The notes under the pieces were generated by a model. It saw nothing but the letters and a program-made list of their open reading frames with translations, was not told where the DNA came from and searched no databases. A stretch of 64,000 bases of DNA from a virus. This document shows, one piece after another, positions 18,282 to 57,657 of the stretch (its first letter is position 1; each line of letters begins with the position of its first letter). A program made the position numbers and the translations under genes. The stretch covers positions 1 to 64,000 of IMG/VR virus record IMGVR_UViG_3300009374_000001. The stretch is one strand, 5' to 3'.

Positions 18282-20069
18282 ATGGGAGATATAGTACTGA
18301 CAACAGCGGGTTTACCAATAAGCGAAGGCGGATACGCATTACTTCGTGAATTAGAAAATGGTGAACTTTATAACACAGAGACCAGTATGTCATATACTGT
18401 ATCAGAAATAGCAGATGTTGTTTTAGGCTATTTTGATGCATACAATTTTGATAATTTTTCTCAATTACCAGATACTGAAGGAATACCTGCAGGCTCTCCT
18501 GTCGTGTTAGAGAATACCTCATTTCACTTAACTTGGGCCGAAGCATTGACCACTTGGGAAAATTTAGATACAAACGGATTAATAACATATTCTTTTACTA
18601 TGGACAATTTACAGGTCGGAACAGTGTTTGGCATAGAGAATAAAGCAACAGGTGAAAAAGCAGAAACCACAATGATTGATGGAGATTCTATTAAAAATAT
18701 ATTTGATAAAATTGTTGCAACAAATGCAAACTTTTTAAGTTCATTCAATATTTCCTTTATGGATGAAAGCGGTGATGGAAATGATGATACGATGCTCTTA
18801 AAAAGAAATACTTCTGTGCATGCAGATATCGACTTAATAGCATATCCAAGGTATAAAGGAGAAGGGAGACCTGCTTTATTGTTAACAGTTGATTCTTCTA
18901 CGAACATTAATACATGGGAAAGTATTGGGAATGGTAATTTTTATGAAGTAGAATGGTTTATTGAAAAAGAAAGCAATGAGTATGAAGATTTTTACTATGA
19001 ATCTAGAGGGCTAATATCAACGCACAATAAACTTGCATTAATATTGCCATACCCAGGCAATTATAATGTAATTATGAAGTTGTATGACTCATTTAATAAT
19101 GTTGTTTTAAATCACAATAAAGAAAGCATTACTGTACACCCATACGAAGCTGAAATAGCTGGAGTATATAAAACACTTGGAGATGAAGTTACATGGGAGA
19201 ATGCAAAATATAGCTGGGAAGACTTTACATCAACATGGGAATTACCATTTTTACCAAAAGATATGCCGAGAGAAGAACTTAAATACTTGTATGGAAGCTT
19301 AAGTAGAAGTGGCTTTCCTGCTAGTGATAACCTTGATATGGCAATGTCATTAAGATATATAGATGATAGCGATGATGGGTTTTCTACACTCCCTGGTCCT
19401 TATAGATGGGATAACTTAGAGGATGCAACATGGGAAGATACTAAGCATATTTGGTGGGATGCAACTCTGTTAGGGATTAATACTCCAGCCTCTTTTAGAA
19501 TTAACACTGTTAGTAATGGAGGTACTTTAAGTATTGTTCAGCAGTTACCTATCCCAGATATTGGGACGATAGAATTTACGAGTAATATTCTTTCAGATGC
19601 AGTAAATCTATTAAATGCATCAACAGCACCAGTATTTAGTAAGTATGAGTATAAACTTATAATTGATACAGATACTGGCGTTGAATACTTTATACTTGCG
19701 ATTGCTAAAGAGCTTGGGGAAAGCGGAGATTGGTATCATATAGAACCAAATAACATTGAGCTAAGTCATTTAAACTTACACAAAGATTTAGGTTATACGC
19801 AGAATAATTCAATTATATTTGAAGAACACCAAGAATTACCAAAGCTTACCCATGTTGTATTTTCTGCTGACCATTCTAGAATACCTGGAAAGACGAAAGC
19901 TAAATGGACATTGAATTACAATGATAATATAAGCGAGGATATATATTCAAACAGTAAATACTTTTCTTATCTTTTTAAGAAAGCTGGTAATTATACATTA
20001 TCTTTAGAATTAGAAGATTCAAATGGAAATGTATATAACAAAAATAAAAATATAATAACAATAAAATGA
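18282..20069 (+). CDS. virion structural protein with PKD-like domains and Trp-repeat segments
   Basis: LPYPGNYNVIMKLYDSFNN and FKKAGNYTLSLELEDSNGN; repeated TWE/WD motifs. Confidence 0.6.
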   Translation: MGDIVLTTAGLPISEGGYALLRELENGELYNTETSMSYTVSEIADVVLGYFDAYNFDNFSQLPDTEGIPAGSPVVLENTSFHLTWAEALTTWENLDTNGLITYSFTMDNLQVGTVFGIENKATGEKAETTMIDGDSIKNIFDKIVATNANFLSSFNISFMDESGDGNDDTMLLKRNTSVHADIDLIAYPRYKGEGRPALLLTVDSSTNINTWESIGNGNFYEVEWFIEKESNEYEDFYYESRGLISTHNKLALILPYPGNYNVIMKLYDSFNNVVLNHNKESITVHPYEAEIAGVYKTLGDEVTWENAKYSWEDFTSTWELPFLPKDMPREELKYLYGSLSRSGFPASDNLDMAMSLRYIDDSDDGFSTLPGPYRWDNLEDATWEDTKHIWWDATLLGINTPASFRINTVSNGGTLSIVQQLPIPDIGTIEFTSNILSDAVNLLNASTAPVFSKYEYKLIIDTDTGVEYFILAIAKELGESGDWYHIEPNNIELSHLNLHKDLGYTQNNSIIFEEHQELPKLTHVVFSADHSRIPGKTKAKWTLNYNDNISEDIYSNSKYFSYLFKKAGNYTLSLELEDSNGNVYNKNKNIITIK

Positions 20070-20509
20070 AACTAACAGAAGCACAATTAAGAGAAACTAT
20101 CCAAGAAGTTATTAAAGAAGATGGAATTAATGAAGCTAAAGGTGAAGAAGCTAAAGCAATCTACAAAGAGTTTACAGATCTTGTTAAAGAATATAGAAAA
20201 AAAATTAAAGCTAAGGTTCTTCAAACGGGGCGCGGGTCTCATAGCTTAAACTTTGGCATTGAATCATTTTCTCATCACATTTTACCACAAACCACTGTTT
20301 ATTTTGTAGATGAAAGTATTTTTGGTGATGATTCTCACGAGATAGAAAAAGTAAGTTTTTCTTCAAGCAACATGGAAAGTAAAAAAGATTTAGACGTTTT
20401 CATTACATTACTAAAAGAAATTCAAAACAATTGGGAATTAATGGAAGAATATAAAGAAAAAGAAAAAGAGATTCAAGCAAGACTTGATGACCTACGTACA
20501 AAAAAATAA
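20066..20509 (+). CDS. hypothetical protein with 'LRxxIxE' leader (putative internal head protein)
   Basis: N-terminus MKLTEAQLRETIQEVIKE..INE, shared with 37172, 44459, 45312 and 46330. Confidence 0.6.
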   Translation: MKLTEAQLRETIQEVIKEDGINEAKGEEAKAIYKEFTDLVKEYRKKIKAKVLQTGRGSHSLNFGIESFSHHILPQTTVYFVDESIFGDDSHEIEKVSFSSSNMESKKDLDVFITLLKEIQNNWELMEEYKEKEKEIQARLDDLRTKK

Positions 20510-37171: not shown

Positions 37172-37510
37172 ATGAAAACATCAGAATTACAAAAAATAAT
37201 TAGAGAAGAAATTCAAAGCTTGAATGAAGGCAACATTGCAATAAACACTAAGCATAGATATTGGTATGGTGTAGATTCTCCAGAAAAGCAATCTGATAAA
37301 TTTTTAGTTGCAAATAAAGGTGTTGATAAGAAAAAAATAGAAAATAAAGATTTACAAATATGGATTACTAAATTTGTAAAAGATAATAAATTAAAAGATG
37401 CTTGGGATTATAATTGGATTGCAATGTTTTGCTATTCTATGAAGTATACAAATAAATATAAAAACGTTGATTTAGGTAAAATGGACGAATGGGCAAGAAA
37501 AAACCATTAA
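37172..37510 (+). CDS. hypothetical protein with 'ELxKIIREE' leader
   Basis: MKTSELQKIIREEIQSLNE. Confidence 0.65.
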   Translation: MKTSELQKIIREEIQSLNEGNIAINTKHRYWYGVDSPEKQSDKFLVANKGVDKKKIENKDLQIWITKFVKDNKLKDAWDYNWIAMFCYSMKYTNKYKNVDLGKMDEWARKNH

Positions 37511-42428: not shown

Positions 42429-42764
42429 ATGAAAAACATAAAATCATTTCAAAGTTTTAGTGACTTTCGCAAGGAAGCTGTTATTAAACAAGTAACTGAA
42501 GAAAAATCTGCACTACAACAAGAATATGCAGATTTCTTTAAAGACCTTCTGAAAAAGTATGACGTAGGCTCTCCTGCTGAATTATCTGATGAAGATAAGT
42601 CAAAATTCTTTGATGAAGTTTCTACTGGCTGGGATAAAGGCGAAGGTAAGAATGCTAAAGGTGAAGAATCAGTTGAAGATGTTGAAGAATCAGTTGAAGA
42701 ATCAGTTGAAGATGCTGAAGAATCACTTGAAGAAGAATTAGATATTGAAATAACTGAAGAGTAA
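42429..42764 (+). CDS. small acidic putative prohead-core/internal protein
   Basis: Leader MKNIKSFQSF; tail EESVEDVEESVEESVEDAEESLEEELDIEITEE. Confidence 0.6.
   Translation: MKNIKSFQSFSDFRKEAVIKQVTEEKSALQQEYADFFKDLLKKYDVGSPAELSDEDKSKFFDEVSTGWDKGEGKNAKGEESVEDVEESVEESVEDAEESLEEELDIEITEE
42663..42735 (+). repeat. coding 9/12-bp repeats (gaagaatcagtt)
   Basis: Repeated gaagaatcagtt and gaagatgtt units. Confidence 0.8.
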
Positions 42765-42768
42765 TATA

Positions 42769-44058
42769 ATGAGGCTTCATTCATTTAAAGATTTTGTAAA
42801 TGAATCTATGTCTAATTTATTAATTGAAGGTGGATCATTTGGCCATCTTCAGCACCCATTTGAAGATTTAACATTATCATTTACAGAGATAAAAGAACTT
42901 ATTGAACTTTCTTTAGATATTGGATTTAGAAGGGAGAACATGGTTTCTGAGAAAACAGATGGCATTCAACTTTCTATTACATGGAAGAATGATGAGATAA
43001 GATTTGCAAAACAGGTTCACACAAAGAAGAATCAGGCAGAGAAAGCTTGGTTTCTTTCTGATGTTAAAGAGCAATGGAAAGCTGTAGCTGATGTGATGTA
43101 TTTAGCAGGCTCGGATTTAAGTGCTGCTCTTTCTGCATTACCTAAGAAATTACTATTAGAAGTATTTGGTGAAGGCAGGAGATTTCTTTCATTAGAAGTT
43201 ATTCATCCGAAGTCATCCAACACAGTTTATTATGGAAGCCCTTTATTAGTATTTCATGGCTTAATAGAATATGATGATAATGGTAAACAAGCCTCTGAGA
43301 TGGATTCTAAGATTACTAAGATGCTTGAGAAAGAACTTGTTAAAGTTAATGCAAATAAACAATCATCGTTTTCTTTACAAGCTCCTAATTTTATTACACT
43401 AGTTAAGTCTGACAAGTTTCCAAAGATAGCAAATACGTTAAAGAGTAACGTGAATAAAATTATAAAAGAAGCTGGGCTTAAAGACAGCGATACTATAGGT
43501 GATTTGCTATATTATTCGTTCGGTGAAAAGATTAAGTCTTGGGCAAATTCATTTAATTATGAAATATCTATAGATGAAATTAATCTACTTTCGCAAAGAT
43601 TTGCTGAACAAAAAGGTTCATACTTTACAGTTAGAGACATGAAGAAAATTGAAAATGAAAAGTTTCAAGAGTGGGTGATTGGCTATTCAGCAAAAGCTGG
43701 CGGATGGAAGGCAGATTGGAAAGATTTTGTTCAGCCAATAGAAACTGTCTTTCTTAAGGTAGGTACAGAAGTAATGCAGCAAATGAGTTCTTATTTAGCA
43801 ACTGATTTAGATGGAAGTAGCGAAGTAATGAGAAAACAATTAGAGGATGCAATTAATGTTATAAACGCGTCTGATAATGCTACAGCTATTAAAAAAGTTG
43901 AAAGTGAAATGAAAAGAATTGAAAACGCGGGTGGCTTAAACAAATTAGTTGCAAGTGAAGGTATAGTTTTTAACTTTAAGGGAAAGCTTTATAAGTTTAC
44001 TGGTCTTTTTGCTCCAATACATCAAATTGTTTCAATCATAAAATTTGGAAAGTTATAA
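42769..44058 (+). CDS. ATP-dependent ligase-fold nucleotidyltransferase (RNA-ligase-like)
   Basis: Motif I EKTDG, III LEVI, IIIa LVFHG, IV EGIVF, V YKF; N-terminal GHLQHPFED. Confidence 0.65.
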   Translation: MRLHSFKDFVNESMSNLLIEGGSFGHLQHPFEDLTLSFTEIKELIELSLDIGFRRENMVSEKTDGIQLSITWKNDEIRFAKQVHTKKNQAEKAWFLSDVKEQWKAVADVMYLAGSDLSAALSALPKKLLLEVFGEGRRFLSLEVIHPKSSNTVYYGSPLLVFHGLIEYDDNGKQASEMDSKITKMLEKELVKVNANKQSSFSLQAPNFITLVKSDKFPKIANTLKSNVNKIIKEAGLKDSDTIGDLLYYSFGEKIKSWANSFNYEISIDEINLLSQRFAEQKGSYFTVRDMKKIENEKFQEWVIGYSAKAGGWKADWKDFVQPIETVFLKVGTEVMQQMSSYLATDLDGSSEVMRKQLEDAINVINASDNATAIKKVESEMKRIENAGGLNKLVASEGIVFNFKGKLYKFTGLFAPIHQIVSIIKFGKL

Positions 44059-44454
44059 ATGGGTATTATTAAAACGTTTGAGAACTTTATTAATGAAAGA
44101 ATAGATTATCTTGAAGTTGCAAGTTCTCTTATTAAGCACTATGGCTTTAATACTAAAGTAAAGTTTGTTAAAAATTTAAAAAATAAAGCTGAATATGATT
44201 GGGATAGTGACACAATAAGATTAAGAACTTCATATAAAACAGAGAAAGATTTTCTTATTACTGTTTTACATGAAATTAATCATGTCAGGGGTGTATATGA
44301 AATGGGTGTTAAGAAATATAAAGATGAATATAAGCATGCAGGTGACATTGCTTTAGCTAATAACGGAGATTTTTATAAAGATAACAGCTTTGAAATAAAG
44401 GCTGAAGATTGGGCACAAAGAGAAGTGAAAAAATGGATAAATAAAATAAAATAA
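44059..44454 (+). CDS. zincin metallopeptidase (HEXXH)
   Basis: TVLHEINH..NSFEIKA. Confidence 0.7.
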   Translation: MGIIKTFENFINERIDYLEVASSLIKHYGFNTKVKFVKNLKNKAEYDWDSDTIRLRTSYKTEKDFLITVLHEINHVRGVYEMGVKKYKDEYKHAGDIALANNGDFYKDNSFEIKAEDWAQREVKKWINKIK

Positions 44455-44458
44455 TAAG

Positions 44459-44728
44459 ATGAAACAATCAGAATTAAGAAAACTAATTAGATTAACAATT
44501 AAAGAGCATATGAATGAAGATTCTTCTGGATCATTTCGGTCTAAGAAGCAAGTAGAACGGTTGACAAAGGGCAAATCTATTCGAGAAACATTTGTAAACC
44601 CATCGGTTGAATATAACGTTACTAACGATGGCGGTATTGTAATTTTTGGTAAAAGAGAAAAAGTTCATTTTACAAAGCAAGACGTTGAAGCTTTAGTAAA
44701 ACAACTTAAAAGAAAAGGGATTGCTTAA
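44459..44728 (+). CDS. hypothetical protein with 'ELRKLIR' leader
   Basis: MKQSELRKLIRLTIKEHMNE. Confidence 0.6.
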   Translation: MKQSELRKLIRLTIKEHMNEDSSGSFRSKKQVERLTKGKSIRETFVNPSVEYNVTNDGGIVIFGKREKVHFTKQDVEALVKQLKRKGIA

Positions 44729-45315
44729 TGATTTTAGAGTTTAAACAATTCGTAGAGTCTATCCAGTCTGAACATACCGGAGAGAAGGTAATTATATTCC
44801 CTGGGAGATTTCAGCCATTTCATAATGGGCATCTTAAAGCATTTGAAAAAGCTTATAAAATGTTCAAGTTAAGAGTTATACCTATACAAATAGTTAGTAA
44901 GAATAAGAACTCTCCAATTAAAGACAAAAAGCTCTTACAAGATATGGGTAATGCATTAGCAAAAGAGAATAAGAAGTTTATTGCAGATATACTGGTAAAG
45001 CCTGACAATGTTATGGGAAATATACCGCAAATGATTAAATGGCTTAGAAGCATTGGTTATAATCCAATGGGCATGGGAACTGGTGAAGATAGATATAAAG
45101 GCTATAAAGGCCAAATTGATTATCTTTTATCAGATAAGTCAGATGTGCCTACAGAAGAATTTGAATTAAAGGTAGTAGATGATAGAACAAGTGGTGCAAG
45201 TGGAACCGCAGTAAGACATGCATTTCAAGATGATGACGCAGATGCACTTAAAGCGATGATTCCAGAGGTACTATTCTTTAAATTTTATAATAAAATAAAA
45301 AAAGCAATACAATGA
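44728..45315 (+). CDS. HIGH-superfamily nucleotidyltransferase (cytidylyltransferase/NMNAT-like)
   Basis: FPGRFQPFHNGH, GEDR and SGTAVR motifs. Confidence 0.85.
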   Translation: MILEFKQFVESIQSEHTGEKVIIFPGRFQPFHNGHLKAFEKAYKMFKLRVIPIQIVSKNKNSPIKDKKLLQDMGNALAKENKKFIADILVKPDNVMGNIPQMIKWLRSIGYNPMGMGTGEDRYKGYKGQIDYLLSDKSDVPTEEFELKVVDDRTSGASGTAVRHAFQDDDADALKAMIPEVLFFKFYNKIKKAIQ

Positions 45316-46319
45316 AGATAACAGAACAGAAATTGAGAAAACTTATACAAGAAAACATTAAGACCCTTACTGAAAAACTTAAAAGATCATCTAGTGAATA
45401 TGATAAATTTGAACAATGGCTAATCACTCTTGATCAAATGACAGTTGGTCATATACTTGACACGTTTGGGACAAAGTTACCAGACGGAGCAGATTTTGAT
45501 ACACCAGGCTATTTCCAAGATGAAGAACTTGACTACGACGATGCTTACGATTTCTTTAGGAGTAACATGGGTGCATCTTGGGTTCAAGATATGGAAAAGT
45601 TTTATAGCAAAAATAAATCTAAATGCGATAAATACACAGAAAGATATACAAAGCAACTTAAAATCTTTAACGAAAATCATTTAAATGAAAAAGACGTATG
45701 GTCTATTAAAGGCTTAGACTCTTCAGATCAACAGGATGTTAATTTAATGAAGCGCGCATTTGAACTTGCAAAAGTTAAAATTATAAAGATAGAAAAATAT
45801 AACGATAGAGCTTACTTTATTACTTTAATTGCAAAAGATGGCAAAGCCATTATTGATACAGAGATTGATACTTTAAGTAATGTCTTTTATATGAATGATA
45901 ATAGAGGCAGAAATAAAATCGGCACACTGCATAGAACAAGTGAAGTTGTTAAGGGTATTAAAGCTCTTGCAAAACTTCCAGGATTTGGACAAACAAGCTT
46001 AGTTAAAGTTAAAGAGTCTTTGGACGAAACATATAAGCTTCGCAAAATTATTAGAAAAGAACTTCAAACTTTGAATGAAGCTAAGATGAGCAAGAAAGAA
46101 TATCAAGAAGCAGCAAAAGAATTTGTTAATCAATGGGAAGATGATTTTAAACAAAGAATCAAAGATGACGGCGGATTTGATTATGAAGAAATGACATATG
46201 ACACTGCTCAAGCTAATAACTTATGGAACGATGGACCTAAGATGGACGCAGATTGGTTATATGACTATATAGAAAAAGAATTAGAAAAGCGACAGTGGTA
46301 TAAAAAATACACAAAATAA
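45312..46319 (+). CDS. modular hypothetical protein with two 'LRKxIxE' leader copies
   Basis: MKITEQKLRKLIQE..LTE; internal HLNE; YKLRKIIRKELQTLNE. Confidence 0.65.
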   Translation: MKITEQKLRKLIQENIKTLTEKLKRSSSEYDKFEQWLITLDQMTVGHILDTFGTKLPDGADFDTPGYFQDEELDYDDAYDFFRSNMGASWVQDMEKFYSKNKSKCDKYTERYTKQLKIFNENHLNEKDVWSIKGLDSSDQQDVNLMKRAFELAKVKIIKIEKYNDRAYFITLIAKDGKAIIDTEIDTLSNVFYMNDNRGRNKIGTLHRTSEVVKGIKALAKLPGFGQTSLVKVKESLDETYKLRKIIRKELQTLNEAKMSKKEYQEAAKEFVNQWEDDFKQRIKDDGGFDYEEMTYDTAQANNLWNDGPKMDADWLYDYIEKELEKRQWYKKYTK

Positions 46320-46329
46320 AAATAATACA

Positions 46330-46557
46330 GTGAAAGAGCAAGAATTAAGAAAACTTATTAGAAAAGAGCTTAACGAACGTATTTCTGGTTATGATGAATT
46401 TGATGTAGCAGTTAAAATTGATTCTGCTATGGAAAAGCTTGACAAAAATATGGGAGTTGAAGTATTTGCAAAGGGTATTGCTAATATGTTTAATGACGTA
46501 TATGGGAAAGAATATGCAAAAGATTTTTATGAAAATATTAACAAAAAATATCAATGA
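46330..46557 (+). CDS. small hypothetical protein with 'ELRKLIR' leader
   Basis: GTG start, MKEQELRKLIRKELNE. Confidence 0.65.
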   Translation: MKEQELRKLIRKELNERISGYDEFDVAVKIDSAMEKLDKNMGVEVFAKGIANMFNDVYGKEYAKDFYENINKKYQ

Positions 46558-47435
46558 TTAAAACTTTTAAAGAGTTCTTGAAGCTTTATGAAAGCGGTAA
46601 TGCTATTGATGACGTAAGACCTATTTTAGGTAGAGAGATACCTGAAACCTTAGAGCATGTAGAAAGGGATCTTTTAAATGCAGTAGGTTTAGATGGTTTT
46701 GATATAGATGCAGCAGTTATAGGTTCAGCTGGAAAGAAAGGCGATGATATAGAATCAGGAGATATTGATATTGCGGTAAGTATTGATAAACTTGCAGGTG
46801 AAAACTCAACTTCTATCAATGAAGTATTAAAGTTTTTAAATATGACTTTAAAAGCTGCAGGTTATGATACTGCAGTTAATTATGGATTCAAACAAGTTTC
46901 AGTGCCATTTCCTATTAAAGGAGATAAAGCCAATGGATATTGTCAAGTTGACTTAATGCTTTCGGATAGCTTAGAATGGTCAAAATTTATGTATCATAGT
47001 CCAGATTTTACCAAGACAGAGTCAAGATATAAAGGTGCATACAGAAACTTATTAATGATGGCAATTGCAACAGAGTCTAAAAAAGAAGCCACTAAGAAAC
47101 TAGACACTGGAGAAACCGTTGAATATGAGCAGTTAGTCATTAGATTAAATACAGGTCTTGTTAAAGTTAGAAAGTCTTTACAGGGTAAACGTGGCTTGGT
47201 TAAAACACCTAAACTTTTAAAAGATTTTGATAGAGTTGTAAGCAATGTTCCAGATGAAGTAGCTGAAGCTTTATTTGGTGAAGGCGTTAAAGCTAAAGAT
47301 ATAATGACATTTGAAAAATGCTGGGATCTTTTTAATTCAAAAACATTTCCATATAAAAATAAAGAAGATATTATTATACAAAAATTTGAAATATATTTAA
47401 GTAAATCAAAGTTACCATTCCCTGAGGAACTATAA
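46554..47435 (+). CDS. pol-beta superfamily nucleotidyltransferase
   Basis: IGSAGKK..SGDIDIAV..QVDLM (GS, DxD and third Asp). Confidence 0.8.
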   Translation: MIKTFKEFLKLYESGNAIDDVRPILGREIPETLEHVERDLLNAVGLDGFDIDAAVIGSAGKKGDDIESGDIDIAVSIDKLAGENSTSINEVLKFLNMTLKAAGYDTAVNYGFKQVSVPFPIKGDKANGYCQVDLMLSDSLEWSKFMYHSPDFTKTESRYKGAYRNLLMMAIATESKKEATKKLDTGETVEYEQLVIRLNTGLVKVRKSLQGKRGLVKTPKLLKDFDRVVSNVPDEVAEALFGEGVKAKDIMTFEKCWDLFNSKTFPYKNKEDIIIQKFEIYLSKSKLPFPEEL

Positions 47436-48337
47436 TGAAAATTGAATCATATTCAAATTATACAACTCTACAAGAGGCTAAGCTTTATGGCTTTACTATT
47501 AAACAACTGTTAAACAGTACCTTAAAATTTAAAGGTAAGACTCTAATTTATTTTGATACTGAAACACTAGGGCTTAAGCCTCATGTAGATTATATTCAGC
47601 TTACGCAAGTTGCAGCAATTGCGTATGATGGCTCAACTATGAAAGAACTTGATTCGTTTAACACTAAGGCTAAATTAGGAGACCCCGCAAAGCATTTATT
47701 AAAACCTGATTCTGATGAAAGAAAAGGATGGGAAGAAAGACAAAAGGCAAGAGGTAAAAGTAAAGGGTTAAGCAATCCTGATGAACTCTTAAAAATGACA
47801 AGATACGGCGATGAGGGTGTTGATTTTATAGAAGAGAAAAAATCAATAGAAGATTTTATTTCATTTATATCTAAGTTTAAAGATCCTATTTTAATTGCGC
47901 ACAATGCACCCTTTGATATGAAATTTATGCATGTAAGAGCTAAATTATTTGATTTAAAGTTCCCTAAAGCTGAAGTATTAGATACATTAAAATTGTCAAG
48001 ACTTTATTTTGTTCCTCTTTTACAAGCTGCTGAGAATAGCAAAGAGTTAGAAAGTATTTTAACAGCTTTATCTAATAAGTTAAAAACAGGAGAACGTGGA
48101 AACAAAGTTTCATCGACGCTTGGAAATTTAGGAAAGGCGTTAGGCGTAAGTGTTGATTCATGGCATGACGCAAAAGCTGATGTTGAGATGTTAATGCAAA
48201 TTGTTGAAAGAATGAAAGAATTCTTTACCCAATACATTGATATAGATATTAGTAAGGAGCATCAGCATGCTGCAAAACTCGATGCTCTTTCTAAAAAGCC
48301 TTGGTGGTGGTCTAAGAAAAAGAAATACAGGATATAA
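47435..48337 (+). CDS. DEDDh 3'-5' exonuclease (DnaQ/RNase T-like)
   Basis: FDTETLG, AHNAPFD, WHDAKADV. Confidence 0.9.
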   Translation: MKIESYSNYTTLQEAKLYGFTIKQLLNSTLKFKGKTLIYFDTETLGLKPHVDYIQLTQVAAIAYDGSTMKELDSFNTKAKLGDPAKHLLKPDSDERKGWEERQKARGKSKGLSNPDELLKMTRYGDEGVDFIEEKKSIEDFISFISKFKDPILIAHNAPFDMKFMHVRAKLFDLKFPKAEVLDTLKLSRLYFVPLLQAAENSKELESILTALSNKLKTGERGNKVSSTLGNLGKALGVSVDSWHDAKADVEMLMQIVERMKEFFTQYIDIDISKEHQHAAKLDALSKKPWWWSKKKKYRI

Positions 48338-48744
48338 TGAAAATTAAATCATATCCAAATTATATTACAGAAAATCCAGACAAGATCTATGTTGGTAAGG
48401 TAAATGAGTTTGATTATTTAAAATCAGAGCTTGATAATGCTAAGAAAGTTTTTAAAGAATTACAGAAGATGTACCCAGATATTCCAAAGTTTCCATTAGT
48501 CTTTAAAGATTTAAAGGGAAGAGGGAGTGGGTTTTTAACTACGACTAGATTAAGAGGCGGCAAGTTTATTTTTATAGATAAAATGACTATCGATAATACA
48601 GGTTTAACTAGTAACCCAGCGGACTATGCAGTGTGTCATGAATTTGCTCATGCAATTCTTGCACATACAAAGCAATCGCTTGCTCATAGTAAAGCACACG
48701 ACAAGCTTACATATAAACTTGCAAAAAAATTTAATTTAGTATGA
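48337..48744 (+). CDS. SprT-like zincin metallopeptidase
   Basis: VCHEFAH..AHSKAH. Confidence 0.7.
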   Translation: MKIKSYPNYITENPDKIYVGKVNEFDYLKSELDNAKKVFKELQKMYPDIPKFPLVFKDLKGRGSGFLTTTRLRGGKFIFIDKMTIDNTGLTSNPADYAVCHEFAHAILAHTKQSLAHSKAHDKLTYKLAKKFNLV

Positions 48745-49805
48745 AAATTAAATCATATACAAACTTCATTAATGAAGGTGGCTGGTCAAGTGCAAAGACA
48801 CAATCTACTGTATTAACCCCACATGTTTTAAAGCTTGCACATGAAACATTACAAAGTATTTTTAAAGAGTTTAATGCCTGGCTTGATAAAGAAGGAATGC
48901 CTCCGATGAAACCAATACGGGCAGTTGGCTCAGGCAGTTATTGGGAAGATGATTTAGTTAATCAACCAGATAAATTATATGGTGATATTGATTACTTATT
49001 TGAATATCCGATTTTAGAGTTTGATCCAAATCCTACAAATAATAGAAAAAATGAATTAGATACAATTAAGCTTTATAATGAAATGCTTTTAGATTGGATA
49101 AAGGCGTTTAAGCCAAATTCTGTTGATTATGAAGAGTCTGTTAAGATATCAAGCCCAACAAGTATTAAGCTTTTAATAATTCCAAAAGATGACATGTTTA
49201 TACAAGCAGACATTTTAATTACTAGTGGCATCTATAAAGATTGGGCGATAGGTAGATATACACCAGTAAAAGACATAAAAGGTTTTGTTATTGGCTATTT
49301 GTATAAAGCAATTGGCTTGACTTTAACCATGAGCTTTCTTGATAGAGGAGTAAGAGCAAAGTTTATTGATGGTAACTTAGTTAGTTTTAGAAAGAGAAAA
49401 AATGTCGAAGAGATGATTATTAGTTTAGACTTTGGCAACTTCTTATACGATATTGCTGAATGGGCAATGGAATTTGATGGTAAGAATAAAAAGAAGATGA
49501 AAGTACATAAGCTCCTAAAGCAGCAAAAAGGTTTAACAAGAGATAATGTTACACTTGAAAAATTCTGTGTAGGCATTAAGGGTCTTGCATATACATTAGA
49601 AATGAACGACTTATTACACATATTCTCTCTTTCAAGTGCAGATGACATGATAAACAAGACAGAAGAAAATTATATAAATTCAATATCTGATGTAAGGCAT
49701 AGCAGTAAGTTTAAGAAAGCTGAAACAGCTCATGCTAGGGCTGCTATGGAGAAGATATTTAAATTCATTGATTATGGAATAGAAACAGTAAGTAGAAGTT
49801 TATGA
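48741..49805 (+). CDS. pol-beta superfamily nucleotidyltransferase (second paralogue)
   Basis: VGSGSY..YGDIDYL..IQADIL. Confidence 0.75.
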   Translation: MKIKSYTNFINEGGWSSAKTQSTVLTPHVLKLAHETLQSIFKEFNAWLDKEGMPPMKPIRAVGSGSYWEDDLVNQPDKLYGDIDYLFEYPILEFDPNPTNNRKNELDTIKLYNEMLLDWIKAFKPNSVDYEESVKISSPTSIKLLIIPKDDMFIQADILITSGIYKDWAIGRYTPVKDIKGFVIGYLYKAIGLTLTMSFLDRGVRAKFIDGNLVSFRKRKNVEEMIISLDFGNFLYDIAEWAMEFDGKNKKKMKVHKLLKQQKGLTRDNVTLEKFCVGIKGLAYTLEMNDLLHIFSLSSADDMINKTEENYINSISDVRHSSKFKKAETAHARAAMEKIFKFIDYGIETVSRSL

Positions 49806-52039
49806 AATCACTATATAAAGAAAAGAACTTAGACAAATTATTTAAACAGAGTCTTTTAGTAACAGAAAAGATTGACGCGCCTAGAATTAAGGTGAAGAAA
49901 GTTAACGATGGTTTTGAAATATTTAAGGCAAATTCAAATACGGCATTAAACGTAGTTGATAGAACTTTAACATCATTATACGAAAATGCGTATGAGCATT
50001 TTTCAAGTTTTTGGAAAGATATGATTGAAGAAGTCCCAGATAATTACATATTTGAAATGTATTATATGACTAATACAAAGCCAGTAAGAACTGAATATGA
50101 CAGGCTACCGAAGAATAATCTAATACTTATATCAATTCAAGTAATGGAGAATGATAAAGTTAAAAAGATTATTAGAGAGCCTAAGATACTAAATGAATGG
50201 GCAGATAAATTTGAAATAGAACACCCGCCTATTTTATTTAACGATAAATTAAGTGAGAATCAGAAATTTAAGTTAAAAGAGTTGCTATCACAGAGCAGTA
50301 AAGATGTTTTTGGGCTATTCAGTAATAGTTCATTTACAGCACATATTATGTCAGTGCTAGACCCTAGAATTCATGAGATGACACTTAACAAAGATACACA
50401 TAAGAATACTAATGGATTTATTTTTACATTTCATGCAGGAAAGGTTGTTTCTAATCTGCTACTACAGAGCTCTCTTAAAGAAAGTAATGATTCATATACG
50501 CCTAATGATTCATACGACTTAGTATTACTAGACTTAGTAGAATATATGATAAAAGATGAATCATGGGAGCATATTTTGCTTAAAGAACATGGTGAAGATT
50601 TAAGATATTTAGAGTGTATCTCAAATATTTTTAATATGTATATGGAAAAGAATATGCATAGACTTTTAGGAATGAGTTTAGAGAAAATGGATTTTGCAAA
50701 TAAGCCAGAATTTAAACTTAATAAAAAAAATATTAAGAACAAAAGAACTAACGAATTATTAGACATTCATGTTTTAAGTGAAATCTTTCAGGCAATGTTG
50801 GGTAGTTTCAGAAAGCATAGAAGCAAAGAAACTACACTAATTTCAAATGCTGCTATTACAGAAATAAATTTATTGATTGATAAGATTAATGAAAAGATAG
50901 GAAAAGAACCAGATATTATAGAGGACAGCGATGAAGTTAAAGATTTTGAAAGTTTTATGATTAGTGAAGGTAGAGATGAAATAATTAATAATATAAATCT
51001 TTCATTGAAAGACTTGGAGATTGATCAATTAAATTATATCAATACATACATTAATAAACAAGGATTAAGTTCAAAAATTAAAGAGATTTTTTCAGGCTTA
51101 GGCTTAACGACTGGTATAGATAAAGTAGTTAATGGCTTTTTATCTTTATTAGTTGGCGCAGGCGGATCATTAGAAGATAATATAGAAATAGTTGATAAAT
51201 TATCAATAGACGGGACGTTATTCAATGATTTAGATATTGGGAAGGTGTCAAATTTTAAGAATAATTTAATTACTAATAGCAAATTTCACACAAAGCTTAT
51301 CAAGACTTTTATTGACTGGGAGCCTAAAAAAATAGATAAATCTGCAATTGGAAAAGGAGAAGCATTTTTAATTGCTTTATTGGGCGGACGAAAAGCAGAA
51401 CATGGAGATATTAAAATAGGTGATAATAATTATGAAGTTAAAGGTAGAGGGGCTCGATTAAAAGCGCAAAGGGGCTATGGTACTTTTATAAATAATGAAA
51501 AAACTTTCATTAAAGATTTTTCTAGTGTTGTTAACTATGGGTTTACACCAAAAGAGAAAATAAATAATAAATATTTAGATAAAAAGAAAAATATACTACC
51601 CTTTAAAGAAATATCTAAAAACATTAACAATATTAATTTTACTGATAAAGGATTATCAATGTATAGAGAGTTTATATTAAATGCAGATAACCCACTTAAA
51701 GCTGTAGAAGTATTACAAGAGTTGTTTAGAAAGATTTTTGTAAATGTTAGTAATTTTAATGAATTATCATTTTTAGATACTTTAAATTCATCCGCTTCAG
51801 AAAAAAAGATGCTTATGGATTTTAAATTAGAGTACAGCAGATTTATATTTGATTATTATAAGAAACAAGAAAAATGGGATTATTTAATGTTTATAAATTT
51901 AGATAACGCTAATTATGTCTGCATTGAAAAATCTAATGAATTTGTGAATTTAATAAAAAATGGAAAAATAAAAATAAATGTAAGCCATAGCTGGACCCAA
52001 ACACAAAATAATGTTCCACAATATACATTAGTGGCTTAA
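49802..52039 (+). CDS. degenerate ligase-fold domain fused to a PD-(D/E)xK-like nuclease domain
   Basis: N-terminal VTEKIDA..PPILF..NGFIF; C-terminal GKGEAFL..GDIKIGDNNYEVKG. Confidence 0.55.
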   Translation: MKSLYKEKNLDKLFKQSLLVTEKIDAPRIKVKKVNDGFEIFKANSNTALNVVDRTLTSLYENAYEHFSSFWKDMIEEVPDNYIFEMYYMTNTKPVRTEYDRLPKNNLILISIQVMENDKVKKIIREPKILNEWADKFEIEHPPILFNDKLSENQKFKLKELLSQSSKDVFGLFSNSSFTAHIMSVLDPRIHEMTLNKDTHKNTNGFIFTFHAGKVVSNLLLQSSLKESNDSYTPNDSYDLVLLDLVEYMIKDESWEHILLKEHGEDLRYLECISNIFNMYMEKNMHRLLGMSLEKMDFANKPEFKLNKKNIKNKRTNELLDIHVLSEIFQAMLGSFRKHRSKETTLISNAAITEINLLIDKINEKIGKEPDIIEDSDEVKDFESFMISEGRDEIINNINLSLKDLEIDQLNYINTYINKQGLSSKIKEIFSGLGLTTGIDKVVNGFLSLLVGAGGSLEDNIEIVDKLSIDGTLFNDLDIGKVSNFKNNLITNSKFHTKLIKTFIDWEPKKIDKSAIGKGEAFLIALLGGRKAEHGDIKIGDNNYEVKGRGARLKAQRGYGTFINNEKTFIKDFSSVVNYGFTPKEKINNKYLDKKKNILPFKEISKNINNINFTDKGLSMYREFILNADNPLKAVEVLQELFRKIFVNVSNFNELSFLDTLNSSASEKKMLMDFKLEYSRFIFDYYKKQEKWDYLMFINLDNANYVCIEKSNEFVNLIKNGKIKINVSHSWTQTQNNVPQYTLVA

Positions 52040-52065
52040 ATATATAAAAAAACAAATATAAAATT

Positions 52066-52413
52066 ATGACTAAAATTTATGAAAACTTTGAAGACTTTGT
52101 TTTTAATGAACTTAATAAAGAAATTGATATTGAACTAGTTGATGAAAGAGTTGAGGTTAAGCGTAAATACACAGATAAATATCCATCTAAATCCATTAAC
52201 GCAAAAGCAAGAGTTAGAAGTGCAGTGCTAAGTGCAATGAAAGATGGGATAGTTACTGAAGAGGAACTTGATAATATTATAGCTGCAGCACAGGGCAGTA
52301 AAGCATGGAAGCGTAAAAATACTAAGCTTTTTAAAGTTACAGAAGATGGCATTAAACTTTCAAAATTTGGTTCACGAATCTATAGAAGAACTCTAGTTAC
52401 AGAGGAAAAATAA
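52066..52413 (+). CDS. hypothetical basic protein with capsid-targeting-like leader
   Basis: MTKIYENFEDFVFNE, then a Lys/Arg-rich domain. Confidence 0.65.
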   Translation: MTKIYENFEDFVFNELNKEIDIELVDERVEVKRKYTDKYPSKSINAKARVRSAVLSAMKDGIVTEEELDNIIAAAQGSKAWKRKNTKLFKVTEDGIKLSKFGSRIYRRTLVTEEK

Positions 52414-56253: not shown

Positions 56254-57657
56254 ATGCTATTAAGTATTGAGCAAGATGATAATAGATTAACTGTTTCGTA
56301 TTATGATAAAGAAGGTGAAACAGCATATAAGATATATGATTTAAATCAATTTAAAAATTGGTATGTTTGTCATGATGGTGATAGATATAAATCTGATATT
56401 TACACGAATTGGGATGGGAGACCTGTTAAACAAGCAAATGCAAAGTTTTTAAATAAACATAGTATTATTGATTTTTTGCAAACTCTGCCTCAAGAAGATA
56501 AAGACTTAATTTTTGCACACAATTATCCAAAGATGTATTTTATGGATATTGAAGTTGAAGTAACTGATGGCTTCCCAGAAGCAAAAAAAGCAGAAAATAG
56601 AATTATTACAGTTTCTATAGCAACGCCTGATAAAGAAATTATAATCTTAGGGTTAAAAGATCTTTCTCCTAATGAAATCACAAATATCGAAATTGATATA
56701 CATAATCATTTTCTTAAAGTTACAGATGATACTTGGAAATTAAAGTATATTAAGTTTAATTCTGAGTATGATATGGTATATACGCTATTGACTAAATATA
56801 TAAGTAAATTGCCCATTATATCTGGGTGGAATTTCATAAGCTACGATTGGACATATATTATTAATCGCTGCTATAGATTACAAATAAACCCAGATATTGC
56901 AAGCCCTTCATTAAAACTAGAAGGTGCTGATAACACGCCAATGCATGTTGGTATTGTAGATTATATGAGACTCTATCATCAGTATGATAGGACAGTAAAA
57001 GTTAAAGAATCATCAACTTTAGCGCATGTTTCGAATATAGTACTTGGTGTATCTAAAGTTAAAAACAATATGAATCTTAAATTACTATATGAGCAGAAAT
57101 ATGCTCAATATGTTTTTTACAATGCCGTTGATTCTATATTAGTTCATATGCTTGATCAAAAGCTCAAGCTAGCAGATGTGCTATATACAGTTGCAAGTAT
57201 GACTAAATCAACTTTATACAGAGCAAGTTCTCCTGTTACTATAACAGAAAGTCTTTTGCTACCGCTATTTAAGCAAAATAACAAGGTATTAGCAAGAGAT
57301 AATGCTGAAAAACAGAAAAAAATAAAGTACACTGGCGCGTACGTTAAAGCACCGAAGGTCGGGTTTCATAAGGGCGTTGCTTGTTTTGACTTTGCAAGTC
57401 TATATCCATCTATGATGAGACAATTTAACATATCTCCAGAAAATTTAAAAAATAAGGTGCCTCCAGTAGCTGTTGAAAAAACTAAAAATGAAAGTAATAT
57501 AGTAACTATTAATGGCTGCGTCTTTGATAAAGAAGACTCATATCTTAGAATGATTTTAACAGCTCTATATGCTAAGCGAAAAGAGTATAAGGGAAAAGCG
57601 TTTAACGCAAAGTTAAAAATGGAAAAAATAAAGAAACAATTAAAAGAAATTAAATAA
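56254..57657 (+). CDS. family B DNA polymerase, N-terminal half (exonuclease plus motif A)
   Basis: DIEV, GWNFISYD, YNAVDS exonuclease motifs; YTGAYV; DFASLYPS; ends in the first fingers helix. Confidence 0.9.
   Translation: MLLSIEQDDNRLTVSYYDKEGETAYKIYDLNQFKNWYVCHDGDRYKSDIYTNWDGRPVKQANAKFLNKHSIIDFLQTLPQEDKDLIFAHNYPKMYFMDIEVEVTDGFPEAKKAENRIITVSIATPDKEIIILGLKDLSPNEITNIEIDIHNHFLKVTDDTWKLKYIKFNSEYDMVYTLLTKYISKLPIISGWNFISYDWTYIINRCYRLQINPDIASPSLKLEGADNTPMHVGIVDYMRLYHQYDRTVKVKESSTLAHVSNIVLGVSKVKNNMNLKLLYEQKYAQYVFYNAVDSILVHMLDQKLKLADVLYTVASMTKSTLYRASSPVTITESLLLPLFKQNNKVLARDNAEKQKKIKYTGAYVKAPKVGFHKGVACFDFASLYPSMMRQFNISPENLKNKVPPVAVEKTKNESNIVTINGCVFDKEDSYLRMILTALYAKRKEYKGKAFNAKLKMEKIKKQLKEIK

What the first reader, a model, noticed from the sequence alone, without database searches (positions are those of the whole stretch)
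42769..52039. Three unrelated nucleotidyl-transfer folds clustered with trimming nucleases: candidate new RNA-end repair or nucleotide-modification pathway
Seen in one translationally coupled run: a KxDG ligase-fold enzyme with motifs I-V (42769), a HIGH nucleotidyltransferase (44728), two pol-beta NTases with intact GS/DxD/D (46554, 48741), a DEDDh exonuclease (47435) and a second ligase-fold protein (49802). Known: pol-beta folds include CCA/poly(A)-adding enzymes, CD-NTases and protein nucleotidylases; HIGH folds include NMNAT and cytidylyltransferases; T4 Rnl1/Pnk repair tRNA cut by PrrC. Inference, with alternatives: (a) trim-extend-seal repair of tRNA/RNA damaged by host defences, the NTase pair possibly splitting the work as CC- and A-adding enzymes do; (b) NAD+ or second-messenger synthesis or decoys against Thoeris/CBASS-type defence; (c) nucleotidylation of host proteins. 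No canonical Pnk, NAMPT or sugar-transferase partner is visible in the window.
Basis: partly seen in the sequence, partly recalled or inferred. Interest (0 to 1): 0.85.

Follow-up and report, generated by a model that had tools for sequence, protein, structure and literature searches.

The report
Phage ligase, nucleotidyltransferase, exonuclease repair module
A fragment of an uncultured giant T4-like phage carries a tight run of nucleotide-transferring and end-trimming enzymes that other phages fuse into single proteins, so they most likely work together to mend broken RNA or DNA ends, although no activity has been measured.

Summary
In a gap-free or overlapping gene run (42429-52413) I confirmed:
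- an OB-less RNA-ligase-fold enzyme (42769);
- a HIGH nucleotidyltransferase (44728);
- two distantly paralogous pol-beta enzymes whose nearest solved folds are family-X polymerase palm plus thumb (46554, 48741);
- a DnaQ-type DEDDh exonuclease (47435).

The "second ligase" (49802) is only weakly supported.

The pathway idea is partly supported, and by stronger evidence than clustering. Other phages fuse these parts into one protein: HIGH-ligase in 50 of 80 loci, HIGH-ligase-PolX, DEDDh-HIGH-ligase, P-loop kinase-HIGH-ligase and 49802N-HIGH.

The conserved core is ligase + HIGH + the 46554-type enzyme (+49802N). The exonuclease, 48741, 45312 and two small HExxH proteins are lineage-specific additions.

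The best reading is a heal/trim/fill/seal repair module for cut nucleic acid, RNA slightly favoured over DNA. The role of the HIGH enzyme is unknown.

CCA-type work sharing, CD-NTase signalling and protein nucleotidylation found no support.

Most proteins carry a T4-like capsid-targeting leader, and the contig encodes a T4-type prohead protease, so virion delivery is plausible but untested.

This scan has already flagged the same module on other phage DNA. I found no paper describing it.

The parts
42429..42764 (+). Small acidic protein with a leader-like N-terminus. It sits just upstream of the ligase gene in relatives.
   Evidence: An iterative search finds it in 22 related loci, always between UvsW and the ligase gene.
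42769..44058 (+). OB-less RNA-ligase-fold covalent nucleotidyltransferase. It has a helical insert of roughly 190 aa between motifs IIIa and IV. It belongs to a new family with no Pfam, PHROG or NCBIfam model.
44059..44454 (+). Small HExxH (HEINH) zincin-like protein with a leader. Accessory.
   Evidence: Weak MPTase-PolyVal hit (E 9e-4, below the cut-off). Absent from relatives' cassettes.
44459..44728 (+). 89-aa protein with the second, helical leader type (MKQSELRKLIRLTIKE). Accessory.
44728..45315 (+). HIGH-superfamily nucleotidyltransferase (PGRFQPFHNGH ... SGTAVR). It is the split partner of the ligase.
45312..46319 (+). 335-aa protein of unknown fold with the helical leader type. Accessory.
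   Evidence: No family hit. Not found in relatives.
46330..46557 (+). 75-aa ORF with a GTG start and a helical leader-like N-terminus.
46554..47435 (+). PolX-palm-like pol-beta nucleotidyltransferase. Core partner of the ligase and the HIGH enzyme.
47435..48337 (+). DnaQ/RNase T-type DEDDh 3'-5' exonuclease. Accessory here, but fused to HIGH-ligase in a 37-kb phage.
48337..48744 (+). Small HExxH (HEFAH) protein with a leader. Accessory.
   Evidence: Motif read from the sequence. No family hit. Not found in relatives.
48741..49805 (+). Second PolX-like (palm plus thumb) nucleotidyltransferase with an extra C-terminal helical part. Distant paralog of 46554. Loosely linked to the module.
49802..52039 (+). 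Two-part protein. The N-terminal ~390 aa is a widespread domain, possibly a degenerate ligase-like fold, that other phages fuse to a HIGH NTase. The C-terminal ~345 aa is a domain that elsewhere stands alone or sits in proteins carrying PF09414 RNA_ligase.
52066..52413 (+). 115-aa leader-tagged protein that closes the cassette in relatives.
   Evidence: Present in 20 of 36 loci anchored on the 46554 type, always after the 49802N homolog.

Best explanation
The run is a nucleic-acid break-repair module.

Its conserved core is the split form of a widespread, unstudied multi-domain phage enzyme. That core has three parts: a HIGH nucleotidyltransferase (44728), an OB-less RNA-ligase-fold enzyme (42769) and a small PolX-like nucleotide adder (46554). 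The 49802 protein is a frequent fourth member.

This phage has added a DEDDh exonuclease (47435), a second PolX-like paralog (48741) and small zincin-like proteins.

Proposed course of action, all of it inferred:
1. Ends left by host nucleases are trimmed by the exonuclease.
2. Missing nucleotides are restored by the PolX-like enzymes.
3. The ligase seals the break through a lysyl-AMP intermediate on K62.

Relatives that fuse a P-loop kinase to the module would also phosphorylate 5'-OH ends.

I favour RNA (for example tRNA cut by anticodon nucleases) over DNA at about 60:40.

The HIGH enzyme probably supplies or pre-forms the adenylyl donor. It could make NAD from NMN and ATP, or adenylylate the 5' phosphate directly. 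This step is the least certain.

Most of the proteins start with a T4-like capsid-targeting leader, so they may be loaded into the head and enter the cell with the DNA.
For: Folds and catalytic residues are confirmed.

Gene fusions:
- HIGH-ligase in 50 of 80 ligase-anchored viral loci. Eight more have the HIGH enzyme within 2 kb. In 19 of the 22 remaining loci the contig edge cuts the frame.
- L175: HIGH-ligase-PolX-like in one 934-aa frame.
- L017: DEDDh-HIGH-ligase in one 1104-aa frame of a phage that is 97% complete at 37 kb.
- 13 loci: AAA_33/Zeta-type kinase-HIGH-ligase.
- 49802N-HIGH.

Neighbourhood: of 36 loci anchored on the 46554 type, 27 hold the ligase, 31 the HIGH enzyme and 21 the 49802N domain. 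Adjacency is kept in L111-L114 although the gene order differs.

RNA preference:
- The nearest folds are RNA ligases (Z 7.3-8.8), ahead of DNA ligases (ASFV 7.2; T4 and Chlorella virus 5.4).
- The model has no OB domain.
- The kinase fusions recall Pnkp/Rnl1 and Trl1.
- A 91%-complete relative has its own LigA-type DNA ligase.
- Pairing of a pol-beta NTase with an RNA ligase is an established repair theme (RlaP; PMC7824862 and bioRxiv 10.64898/2025.12.29.696909).

Leader:
- 9 of 72 ORFs match a leader pattern, against 0.5 expected from shuffles.
- An S77 prohead protease is encoded on the contig.
- The leaders are low-confidence tails in both models.
Against: - No activity, substrate or virion data exist.
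- The structural Z scores for the ligase (about 8-9) are only middling.
- The PolX likeness and the DnaQ-type exonuclease fit DNA as well as RNA.
- No polynucleotide kinase or phosphatase is on this contig, which is only about 22% of the genome.
- No member of RlaP, Rnl1 or Rnl2 is present here.
- Most neighbourhood evidence comes from related phages with shared synteny, so the counts are not independent.
- The 48741 type, the zincin-like genes and 45312 are not linked to the module in relatives.
- A kinase paired with a HIGH NTase is also the usual pattern of cofactor and nucleotide-sugar pathways (NadR, PAPS synthase), so the fusions do not by themselves prove a polynucleotide substrate.
Confidence: 0.55

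Rival explanations
1. The module repairs DNA, not RNA. A minimal PolX, a DnaQ-type proofreading or trimming exonuclease and a ligase fill and seal gaps, nicks or broken ends of the incoming or replicating phage genome. This would be comparable to the PolX plus ligase repair set of African swine fever virus. If the enzymes are head-packaged, they could act before any phage gene is expressed.
For: - The nine best of 48,161 folds for 48741 are family-X DNA polymerases. They include the minimal ASFV PolX (172 of 176 residues aligned, 17% identity).
- Four of 30 homologs of 46554 hit DNA_pol_B_palm.
- The best NCBIfam matches of the exonuclease are PolC/DnaQ types.
- The run lies between gp32/UvsW and dUTPase/RNR/PolB.
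- ASFV DNA ligase scores Z 7.2 against the ligase model, roughly 1.5 below the top hit.
Against: - The ligase model has no OB domain, which known ATP-dependent DNA ligases have (established knowledge; model).
- The top eight fold matches are RNA ligases.
- The relative G005 has a separate LigA-type DNA ligase.
- The P-loop kinase fusions suit 5'-OH ends, which are typical of RNase cuts.
Confidence: 0.22
2. The core is about NAD or another adenylylated cofactor rather than polynucleotide repair. The HIGH enzyme would be an NMNAT, and the fused kinase in relatives a nicotinamide riboside kinase as in NadR. The ligase-fold domain would use or regenerate the product, restoring NAD that host defences deplete.
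For: - The GRFQPFHNGH motif gives short matches to archaeal/NadM NMNAT models (E 3e-5 to 1e-3, N-terminal 30-60 residues only).
- Kinase plus HIGH fusions resemble NadR (PMC7824862, section 3.4.8).
- The relative G005 has a NAMPT and an NAD-dependent ligase.
Against: - All NMNAT models score far below their cut-offs; only the generic HIGH domain passes.
- NAMPT is absent from the 97%-complete small phage that carries the fusion.
- This reading does not explain the obligate ligase fold with an intact KxDG lysine.
- It does not explain the PolX-like and exonuclease fusions.
Confidence: 0.1
3. There is no shared pathway. The run is a hyperplastic cassette of unrelated leader-tagged cargo genes. 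Recombination between their similar 5' ends brought them together, so their clustering says nothing about function.
For: - The leader sits on at least 9 genes here and on a dozen or more consecutive genes in relatives.
- The cassette content varies between relatives. 47435, 48741, 45312 and the zincin-like genes are not shared.
- The first 18 nt of 48337 and 48741 are identical.
Against: Fusions and rearranged adjacency outside this phage group tie together the ligase, the HIGH enzyme, the 46554 type, the exonuclease and 49802N. This rival therefore holds for the accessory genes only.
Confidence: 0.1
4. The pol-beta enzymes make cyclic or linear nucleotide signals or decoys against CBASS or Thoeris, or they nucleotidylate host proteins.
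For: The pol-beta fold is shared with CD-NTases and with protein nucleotidylases. CD-NTase chains appear in the fold list (CdnG Z 7.9; the other CD-NTases listed Z 6.0-6.8).
Against: - No PADLOC CD-NTase model matches.
- The nine PolX chains score Z 8.8-10.9 over 166-192 aligned residues, against 7.9 or less for CD-NTases.
- The 46554 type is fused to a ligase in L175.
Confidence: 0.03

Closest known systems
RlaP (PF10127) pol-beta NTase working beside RNA ligases in bacterial and phage RNA repair (PMC7824862; bioRxiv 10.64898/2025.12.29.696909)
   Same: A small pol-beta nucleotidyltransferase is genomically coupled to an RNA-ligase-fold enzyme. The proposed logic is the same: restore lost 3' nucleotides, then seal.
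   Different: - Neither 46554 nor 48741 matches PF10127, and the family is absent from the four records searched.
- Their nearest folds are PolX palm plus thumb.
- The ligase belongs to a family without a Pfam model and is tied to a HIGH NTase. I did not find that tie described for RlaP systems.
T4 tRNA repair (Pnkp plus Rnl1) and fungal Trl1 (ligase-kinase-phosphodiesterase)
   Same: An OB-less RNA-ligase fold with KxDG. Relatives fuse a P-loop kinase into the same polypeptide, as Trl1 does. The context is phage counter-defence.
   Different: - No phosphatase or cyclic phosphodiesterase was found.
- The kinase is absent from this contig.
- The ligase has a helical insert of about 190 aa inside the nucleotidyltransferase domain.
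- A HIGH NTase lies between the kinase and the ligase.
- There is no sequence match to Rnl1 or Rnl2 models.
Naegleria NgrRnl (Rnl5) and Trypanosoma REL1 nick-sealing RNA ligases
   Same: These are the best structural matches to 42769 (Z 8.0-8.8, about 188 residues aligned, 14-15% identity). The trypanosome editosome also combines an exonuclease, a pol-beta uridylyltransferase and a ligase.
   Different: There is no detectable sequence homology. The accessory domains differ. The editosome comparison is an analogy from textbook knowledge, not a relationship shown here.
African swine fever virus PolX plus DNA ligase repair pair
   Same: A minimal palm-plus-thumb PolX (Z 10.2 to 48741) and a viral ligase that appears among the fold matches (Z 7.2).
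   Different: The ASFV ligase has an OB domain and a DNA-binding domain. ASFV also has an AP endonuclease, which was not seen here. The substrate here is unknown.
T4 internal proteins and Alt with the capsid-targeting sequence, cut by the prohead protease gp21 (Mullaney and Black 1996, as reviewed in PMC5694885)
   Same: An N-terminal tag of 10-20 residues ending in Glu sits on unrelated proteins, and an S77 prohead protease is encoded on the contig.
   Different: Here the tag sits on many enzymes in a replication-gene neighbourhood. Packaging and cleavage are untested.

Membership tests
Covalent nucleotidyltransferases (ATP/NAD ligases and capping enzymes), for 42769 | Motif I KxDG with the nucleophilic lysine | tested here: met
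   The motif reads EKTDG. K62 is kept in at least 90% of 38 homologs, and D64 and G65 are invariant.
Covalent nucleotidyltransferases (ATP/NAD ligases and capping enzymes), for 42769 | Motifs III, IIIa, IV and V in order | tested here: met
   SLEV (E143), LVFHG (F162, H163), EGIVF (E397, G398, F401) and K409 are invariant and collinear. I assigned these to the motifs by eye.
Covalent nucleotidyltransferases (ATP/NAD ligases and capping enzymes), for 42769 | Nucleotidyltransferase fold | tested here: met
   AF2 pLDDT 88.6. The top eight of 48,161 chains are RNA ligases, Z 7.3-8.6 with 188-212 residues aligned. Among Foldseek's own matches the top Z is 8.8.
DNA ligases and capping enzymes, for 42769 | C-terminal OB domain | tested here: not met
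   After motif V the model ends in one helix (414-425). The extra mass is a helical insert at roughly 217-386.
Pfam RNA-ligase and DNA-ligase families (PF09414, PF09511, PF01068), for 42769 | Match to the family model above its cut-off | tested here: not met
   42769 has no Pfam, PHROG or NCBIfam hit. No PF09414 or PF01068 match on the contig. A homolog reaches only 19.4 bits for PF09414, against a cut-off of 27.
Ligases in general, for 42769 | Self-adenylylation and strand joining | not testable with these tools
   Needs an enzyme assay.
HIGH nucleotidyltransferases (PF01467), for 44728 | HxGH and ISxTxxR-type motifs, and a Pfam score above the cut-off | tested here: met
   34.3 bits against a cut-off of 21. 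H32 is nearly invariant; G34, H35, S158 and R163 are invariant in 18 orthologs.
NMN adenylyltransferase (NadM/NadR/archaeal type), for 44728 | Match to an equivalog model above its cut-off | tested here: not met
   The best match is 23.7 bits against a cut-off of 127. Matches cover only the first 30-60 residues of the domain.
Pol-beta superfamily, for 46554 and 48741 | hG[GS], DxD and a third carboxylate | tested here: met
   G57-S58, D70/D72 and D133 in 46554; G63-S64, D82/D84 and D157 in 48741. All are invariant in the family alignments.
Family X DNA polymerases, for 48741 (and 46554 by homology) | Palm plus thumb fold | tested here: met
   Z 10.9-11.2, rmsd 3.5, 187 residues aligned to Pol beta 142-335. 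The nine top chains are all PolX. 46554 is linked by hhalign at 83%.
Family X DNA polymerases, for 48741 | 8-kDa and fingers (helix-hairpin-helix) domains | tested here: not met
   Matches to the full-length PolX enzymes start at the palm (Pol beta residue 142, Pol lambda about 336-379). The protein has no N-terminal region to hold these domains. This resembles the minimal ASFV PolX.
RlaP (PF10127), for 46554 and 48741 | Match to the family model | tested here: not met
   No Pfam hit for either protein or for 30 homologs of 46554. PF10127 is absent from G000, G001, G004 and G005.
CD-NTases (CBASS), for 46554 and 48741 | Match to CD-NTase models or a best fold match to them | tested here: inconclusive
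   No PADLOC hit. The CD-NTase chains listed score Z 6.0-7.9, below the PolX chains.
DEDDh exonucleases (PF00929), for 47435 | Exo I, II and III motifs with His, and a Pfam score above the cut-off | tested here: met
   42.8 bits against a cut-off of 24. FDTET, HNAPFD and HDAKAD are present. PADLOC DEDDh 2e-16.
Ligase fold, for the 49802 N-terminal domain | Conserved motif I lysine and a significant profile or fold match | tested here: inconclusive
   hhalign to the 42769 family gives 14%, E 0.002, with 210 columns in register. K23 is kept in 25 of 32 homologs.
T4-type capsid-targeting sequence cargo | Short N-terminal tag ending in Glu on unrelated proteins, together with an S77 prohead protease | tested here: met
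   9 of 72 ORFs match, against 0.5 expected from shuffles. PF03420 hits at contig 71565-71906 with 51.6 bits.
T4-type capsid-targeting sequence cargo | Cleavage of the tag and presence in the virion | not testable with these tools
   Needs virion mass spectrometry.

The most novel reading that the evidence does not exclude
The HIGH enzyme is an integral part of the ligation chemistry. Either it adenylylates the 5' phosphate directly (ATP + pN-end gives AppN-end), so that kinase, adenylyltransferase and sealing are divided among three domains. Or it regenerates NAD from the NMN that an NAD-using RNA ligase releases. In this phage the whole kit would be loaded into the capsid and injected with the DNA. 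That would be a new ligation scheme and the first virion-delivered nucleic-acid repair set.
Probability: 0.12. Interest if true: 0.85.

Novelty: new variant of a known kind. Interest (0 to 1): 0.6.

Why it matters
Phage repair of RNA cut by host defences is known from T4 (Pnkp and Rnl1) and from RlaP-ligase pairs.

Here the same logic appears with different parts:
- a ligase family that no public model recognises;
- a HIGH nucleotidyltransferase that is almost always fused to that ligase;
- a miniature PolX-like enzyme.

The ligase family is common. At least 521 loci in IMG/VR encode it, on contigs from about 2.8 kb fragments to 294 kb. Databases call it only 'cytidylyltransferase-like' or 'hypothetical'.

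Working out its substrate would annotate a large block of viral dark matter. It could also yield a new ligase or end-modifying enzyme for laboratory use.

If the leaders do direct packaging, it would show that phages can bring a ready-made repair kit into the cell.

Tried and rejected
- Sequence searches of 42769, 46554, 48741 and 49802 against PDB chains found nothing meaningful. Profiles A1 and A3 did no better.
- Megablast of the region against GenBank phages found no match.
- tblastn of 42769 found only three records: Microcystis phage Mel-JY01, annotated 'cytidylyltransferase like protein', and two uncultured huge phages.
- DUF6267 (PF19782) came up as an Atlas lead, but it is not in this contig or in five relatives, and no paper mentions it.
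- Complex prediction of 42769 with 44728 gave no verdict (score 0.00, below the mark). This is not evidence either way.
- T4 late-promoter (TATAAATA), sigma-70 and terminator scans were at or below chance.
- No tRNA genes are in the window.
- The search for related loci with the 49802N alignment failed because no block was conserved enough.
- The 2016 Burroughs and Aravind RNA-repair paper could not be fetched. I therefore could not check whether it mentions a HIGH-ligase pairing.
- A CCA-adding-like division of labour between the two pol-beta enzymes is rejected on the fold ranking and on the lack of linkage.

Full report
**Setting.** The window is the first 64 kb of a 75,247-bp linear IMG/VR virus contig that CheckV rates 22% complete. 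That implies a phage of roughly 340 kb. GC content is about 31%, and nearly all genes lie on the + strand. A sheath-like protein matches uncultured huge phages and Flavobacterium, Tenacibaculum and Lak phages at 23-39% identity. The run is flanked by gp32 and UvsW upstream, and by DUF3008, dUTPase, ribonucleotide reductase and a family-B polymerase downstream. The contig also encodes a T4 gp21-type (S77) prohead protease.

**Observation.** Every junction from 42764 to 52039 is a gap of 0-10 nt or an overlap of 1-4 nt. Pfam recognises only two of the six enzymes: the HIGH nucleotidyltransferase at 44728 (CTP_transf_like, 3e-8) and the DEDDh exonuclease at 47435 (RNase_T, 1e-10). The other four needed homolog collection and structure prediction.

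**42769.**
- 125 homolog clusters were found. In 38 unfused ones, K62 of motif I (EKTDG) is nearly invariant, and D64 and G65 of the same motif, E143, F162-H163, E397-G398-F401 and K409 are invariant. This is the order of ligase motifs I, III, IIIa, IV and V.
- The AF2 model is confident (pLDDT 88.6, pTM 0.84).
- Foldseek's best hits are T4 Rnl1, an Rnl3 and Trl1.
- An exhaustive alignment to 48,161 chains puts eight RNA ligases on top: NgrRnl Z 8.6, REL1 8.0, T4 Rnl1 and Rnl2 7.6, Trl1 7.3-7.5. ASFV DNA ligase follows at 7.2, and T4 and Chlorella virus DNA ligases at 5.4.
- The Z scores are middling, but about 190 residues align, the whole list is one superfamily, and the catalytic motifs are conserved.
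- The model has no OB domain. It has a helical insert of about 190 residues between motifs IIIa and IV.
- I accept the ligase fold. Because it lacks the OB domain, I call it RNA-ligase-like.

**48741 and 46554.**
- The model of 48741 is confident (pLDDT 89.3).
- The nine best of 48,161 chains are all family-X polymerases (Pol beta 10.9, Leishmania Pol beta 10.6, ASFV PolX 10.2, TdT 10.1, Pol lambda 10.0, Thermus PolX 9.9, Pol mu 8.8), with 166-192 residues aligned over palm and thumb.
- Terminal uridylyltransferases, poly(A) polymerases and two CD-NTase-type chains come next at Z 8.1 or less. Most of these rows align only 100-120 residues.
- 46554 is a distant paralog. hhalign between the two family alignments gives 83%, E 9e-6, with GS, DxD and the third Asp in register. 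Four of 30 of its homologs touch DNA_pol_B_palm. The protein atlas points to PF01909-bearing clusters.
- Neither protein matches RlaP (PF10127) or any PADLOC CD-NTase model.
- The pol-beta call is therefore right. The closest kin are gap-filling and end-extending PolX enzymes, not CCA-adding enzymes or cGAS-like synthases.

**49802.**
- The N-terminal ~390 residues form a widespread domain (362 cluster representatives) joined to varied C-termini.
- Against the 42769 family, hhalign gives only 14%, E 0.002, though 210 columns align with motifs I, III and IIIa in register.
- The motif I lysine is kept in 25 of 32 homologs. This phage's copy has Y and N where the family mostly has the motif III and motif IV acids.
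- As a control, the structurally validated 42769 family scores no better against a canonical PF09414 ligase than the 49802N family does, and both align at motif I.
- A ligase-like, perhaps degenerate, fold is possible but not shown.
- The C-terminal ~345 residues resemble stand-alone phage proteins. They also resemble part of an 875-aa viral cluster in which 75% of members carry PF09414 RNA_ligase.
- Restriction-endonuclease families are the nearest named ones, but at chance-level scores. I read a D...EVK motif by eye, which is a lead only.

The answer differs for the core and the accessory genes.

Evidence from 80 IMG/VR loci fetched with the ligase family, out of at least 521 positives:
- 50 have the HIGH domain and the ligase in one frame.
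- 8 have the HIGH gene within 2 kb.
- In 19 of the 22 remaining loci, the contig edge cuts the frame.

Single frames elsewhere join further parts:
- HIGH-ligase-PolX-like (L175, 934 aa).
- DEDDh-HIGH-ligase (L017, 1104 aa, in a 37-kb phage rated 97% complete; its exonuclease part is 49% identical to 47435).
- An AAA_33/Zeta-type P-loop kinase-HIGH-ligase in 13 loci.
- Long homologs of 49802 carry the HIGH domain after the 49802N domain.

Evidence from 36 loci fetched with the 46554 family:
- 27 hold the ligase, 31 the HIGH enzyme and 21 the 49802N domain.
- The usual order is UvsW, small acidic protein, ligase, HIGH, 46554 type, 49802N, 52066 type, DUF3008.
- In the more distant L111-L114 the order changes, but the three core genes stay adjacent.

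Evidence against linkage of the accessory genes:
- 45312 and the two HExxH genes are not found in any relative's cassette. 48741 and 47435 are not in the relatives' version of this cassette.
- Of 41 loci holding the 48741 family, only 9 have a 46554-type neighbour and 3 have a ligase.
- In four large contigs that hold both, the 48741 homolog lies about 30-80 kb from the cassette.

So the core module is ligase + HIGH + 46554 type, often with 49802N. The exonuclease is tied in by one fusion. The rest is lineage-specific.

**Function.** The set of fused partners is kinase, exonuclease, nucleotide adder and ligase. This is the classical make-up of end-healing and sealing systems (T4 Pnkp/Rnl1, Trl1, RlaP with RNA ligases; PMC7824862 section 3.4.9; bioRxiv 10.64898/2025.12.29.696909). 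I therefore favour repair of broken polynucleotide ends.

RNA is favoured by:
- the OB-less, RNA-ligase-like fold;
- the kinase fusions;
- a separate LigA-type DNA ligase, plus a PF09414 ligase, in a 91%-complete relative.

DNA is favoured by:
- the PolX likeness;
- the DnaQ-type exonuclease;
- the replication-gene neighbourhood.

I put the split at about 60:40.

The HIGH enzyme is the real puzzle. Only the generic domain model passes its cut-off, and matches to NMNAT, PPAT and FAD-synthase models are short and far below threshold. HIGH enzymes make NMP-phosphate-X pyrophosphate bonds. That is the same bond as in the AppN ligation intermediate and in NAD. Supplying or pre-forming the adenylyl donor is therefore a chemically sensible guess, but no more than that.

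A kinase paired with a HIGH enzyme is also typical of cofactor pathways (NadR). That keeps an NAD-centred rival alive.

**Leaders.**
- Nine of 72 ORFs on the contig, eight of them in this run, begin with a pattern like MKIKSYxNFINE. Residue shuffling gives 0.5 on average and at most 5 in 1000 trials.
- Orthologs of the HIGH, ligase and 46554 genes in related giant phages carry MKH[IV]KLFEQF[IV]NE-type starts, as do a dozen neighbouring genes.
- In both AF2 models the first 10-20 residues are low-confidence tails.
- Together with the S77 protease, this fits the T4 capsid-targeting sequence, a 10-20-residue propeptide removed by gp21 (PMC5694885, citing Mullaney and Black 1996).
- Packaging and cleavage are not shown.
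- The leader also cautions against reading the clustering alone as evidence of a pathway, because any tagged gene may land in this cassette.

**Other context.**
- In 66 of the 80 ligase loci, a large terminase gene lies 0.45-3.8 kb downstream on the same strand. A T4-type portal gene follows in 48.
- The same arrangement holds in Microcystis phage Mel-JY01.
- In that widespread phage lineage the fusion sits at the border of the packaging module. In the giant phages it sits among replication genes.
- These 66 loci share a gene order and probably an ancestry, so I do not count them as independent evidence.

**Earlier notes of this scan.** After my own tests I looked these up. Several agents working on other phage DNA reached much the same reading: a capsid-tagged ligase / NMNAT-like / PolX-like repair module. 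These are unchecked AI notes, and I treat them as agreement, not as evidence. This window adds three things: the accessory DEDDh exonuclease and second PolX paralog inside the cassette, the demonstration that these two are not conserved partners, and the HIGH-ligase-PolX, DEDDh-HIGH-ligase and kinase-HIGH-ligase single-frame fusions documented here.

**Verdict.**
- The module is a new variant of a known kind of system.
- Interest is moderate to high, because the family is very common, unannotated and biochemically testable.

Noticed in passing
window 44459-44728, 45312-46319, 46330-46557, 20066-20509, 37172-37510; contig 69535-69819: A second, helical leader type (MKxSELRKLIRxxIKE..E) starts several otherwise unrelated small proteins. 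Other first-stage notes flagged it as well.
   Followed up: no
window 44059-44454 and 48337-48744: Two small proteins carry HExxH (HEINH, HEFAH) and a capsid-tag-like start. One weakly matches the MPTase-PolyVal zincin domain, which occurs in phage proteins thought to be injected. Neither is conserved in relatives' cassettes.
   Followed up: partly
window 47435, 48337, 48741 (gene starts): The first 18 nt of 48337 and 48741 are identical, and 47435 is very similar. This suggests recent copying or recombination between leaders.
   Followed up: no
L017:15509-19822: The T4-type portal gene of a 37-kb phage is interrupted by an intein with an HNH endonuclease. The frame is 1437 aa.
   Followed up: no
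L002-L081 (66 of 80 loci); L123 (Microcystis phage Mel-JY01): The HIGH-ligase fusion gene lies 0.45-3.8 kb upstream of the large terminase gene. In 48 of the 80 loci a portal gene follows. This gene order is strongly conserved and unexplained.
   Followed up: partly
L005, L021, L028, L031, L042 and others (starts of the fusion frames): Many long fusion proteins of the small-phage lineage begin MNKLTEWLTKPFLEE or MSLKKLVEEITQPIVE. This is another conserved N-terminus ending in Glu, and it may also be a propeptide.
   Followed up: no
contig 71502-73391 (beyond the window): The S77 prohead protease domain occupies only the first ~140 residues of a 629-aa protein. The long C-terminal part was not examined.
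   Followed up: no
window 56254-57657: The family-B DNA polymerase ORF is only 467 aa: the exonuclease domain plus the start of the polymerase domain. The polymerase may be split or interrupted.
   Followed up: no
G005 (294-kb relative): 44479-45213, 79550-80371, 72186-72884: A near-complete relative encodes a LigA-type NAD-dependent ligase, a NAMPT-like enzyme and a PF09414 ligase, all far from the cassette. This bears on the NAD reading.
   Followed up: partly
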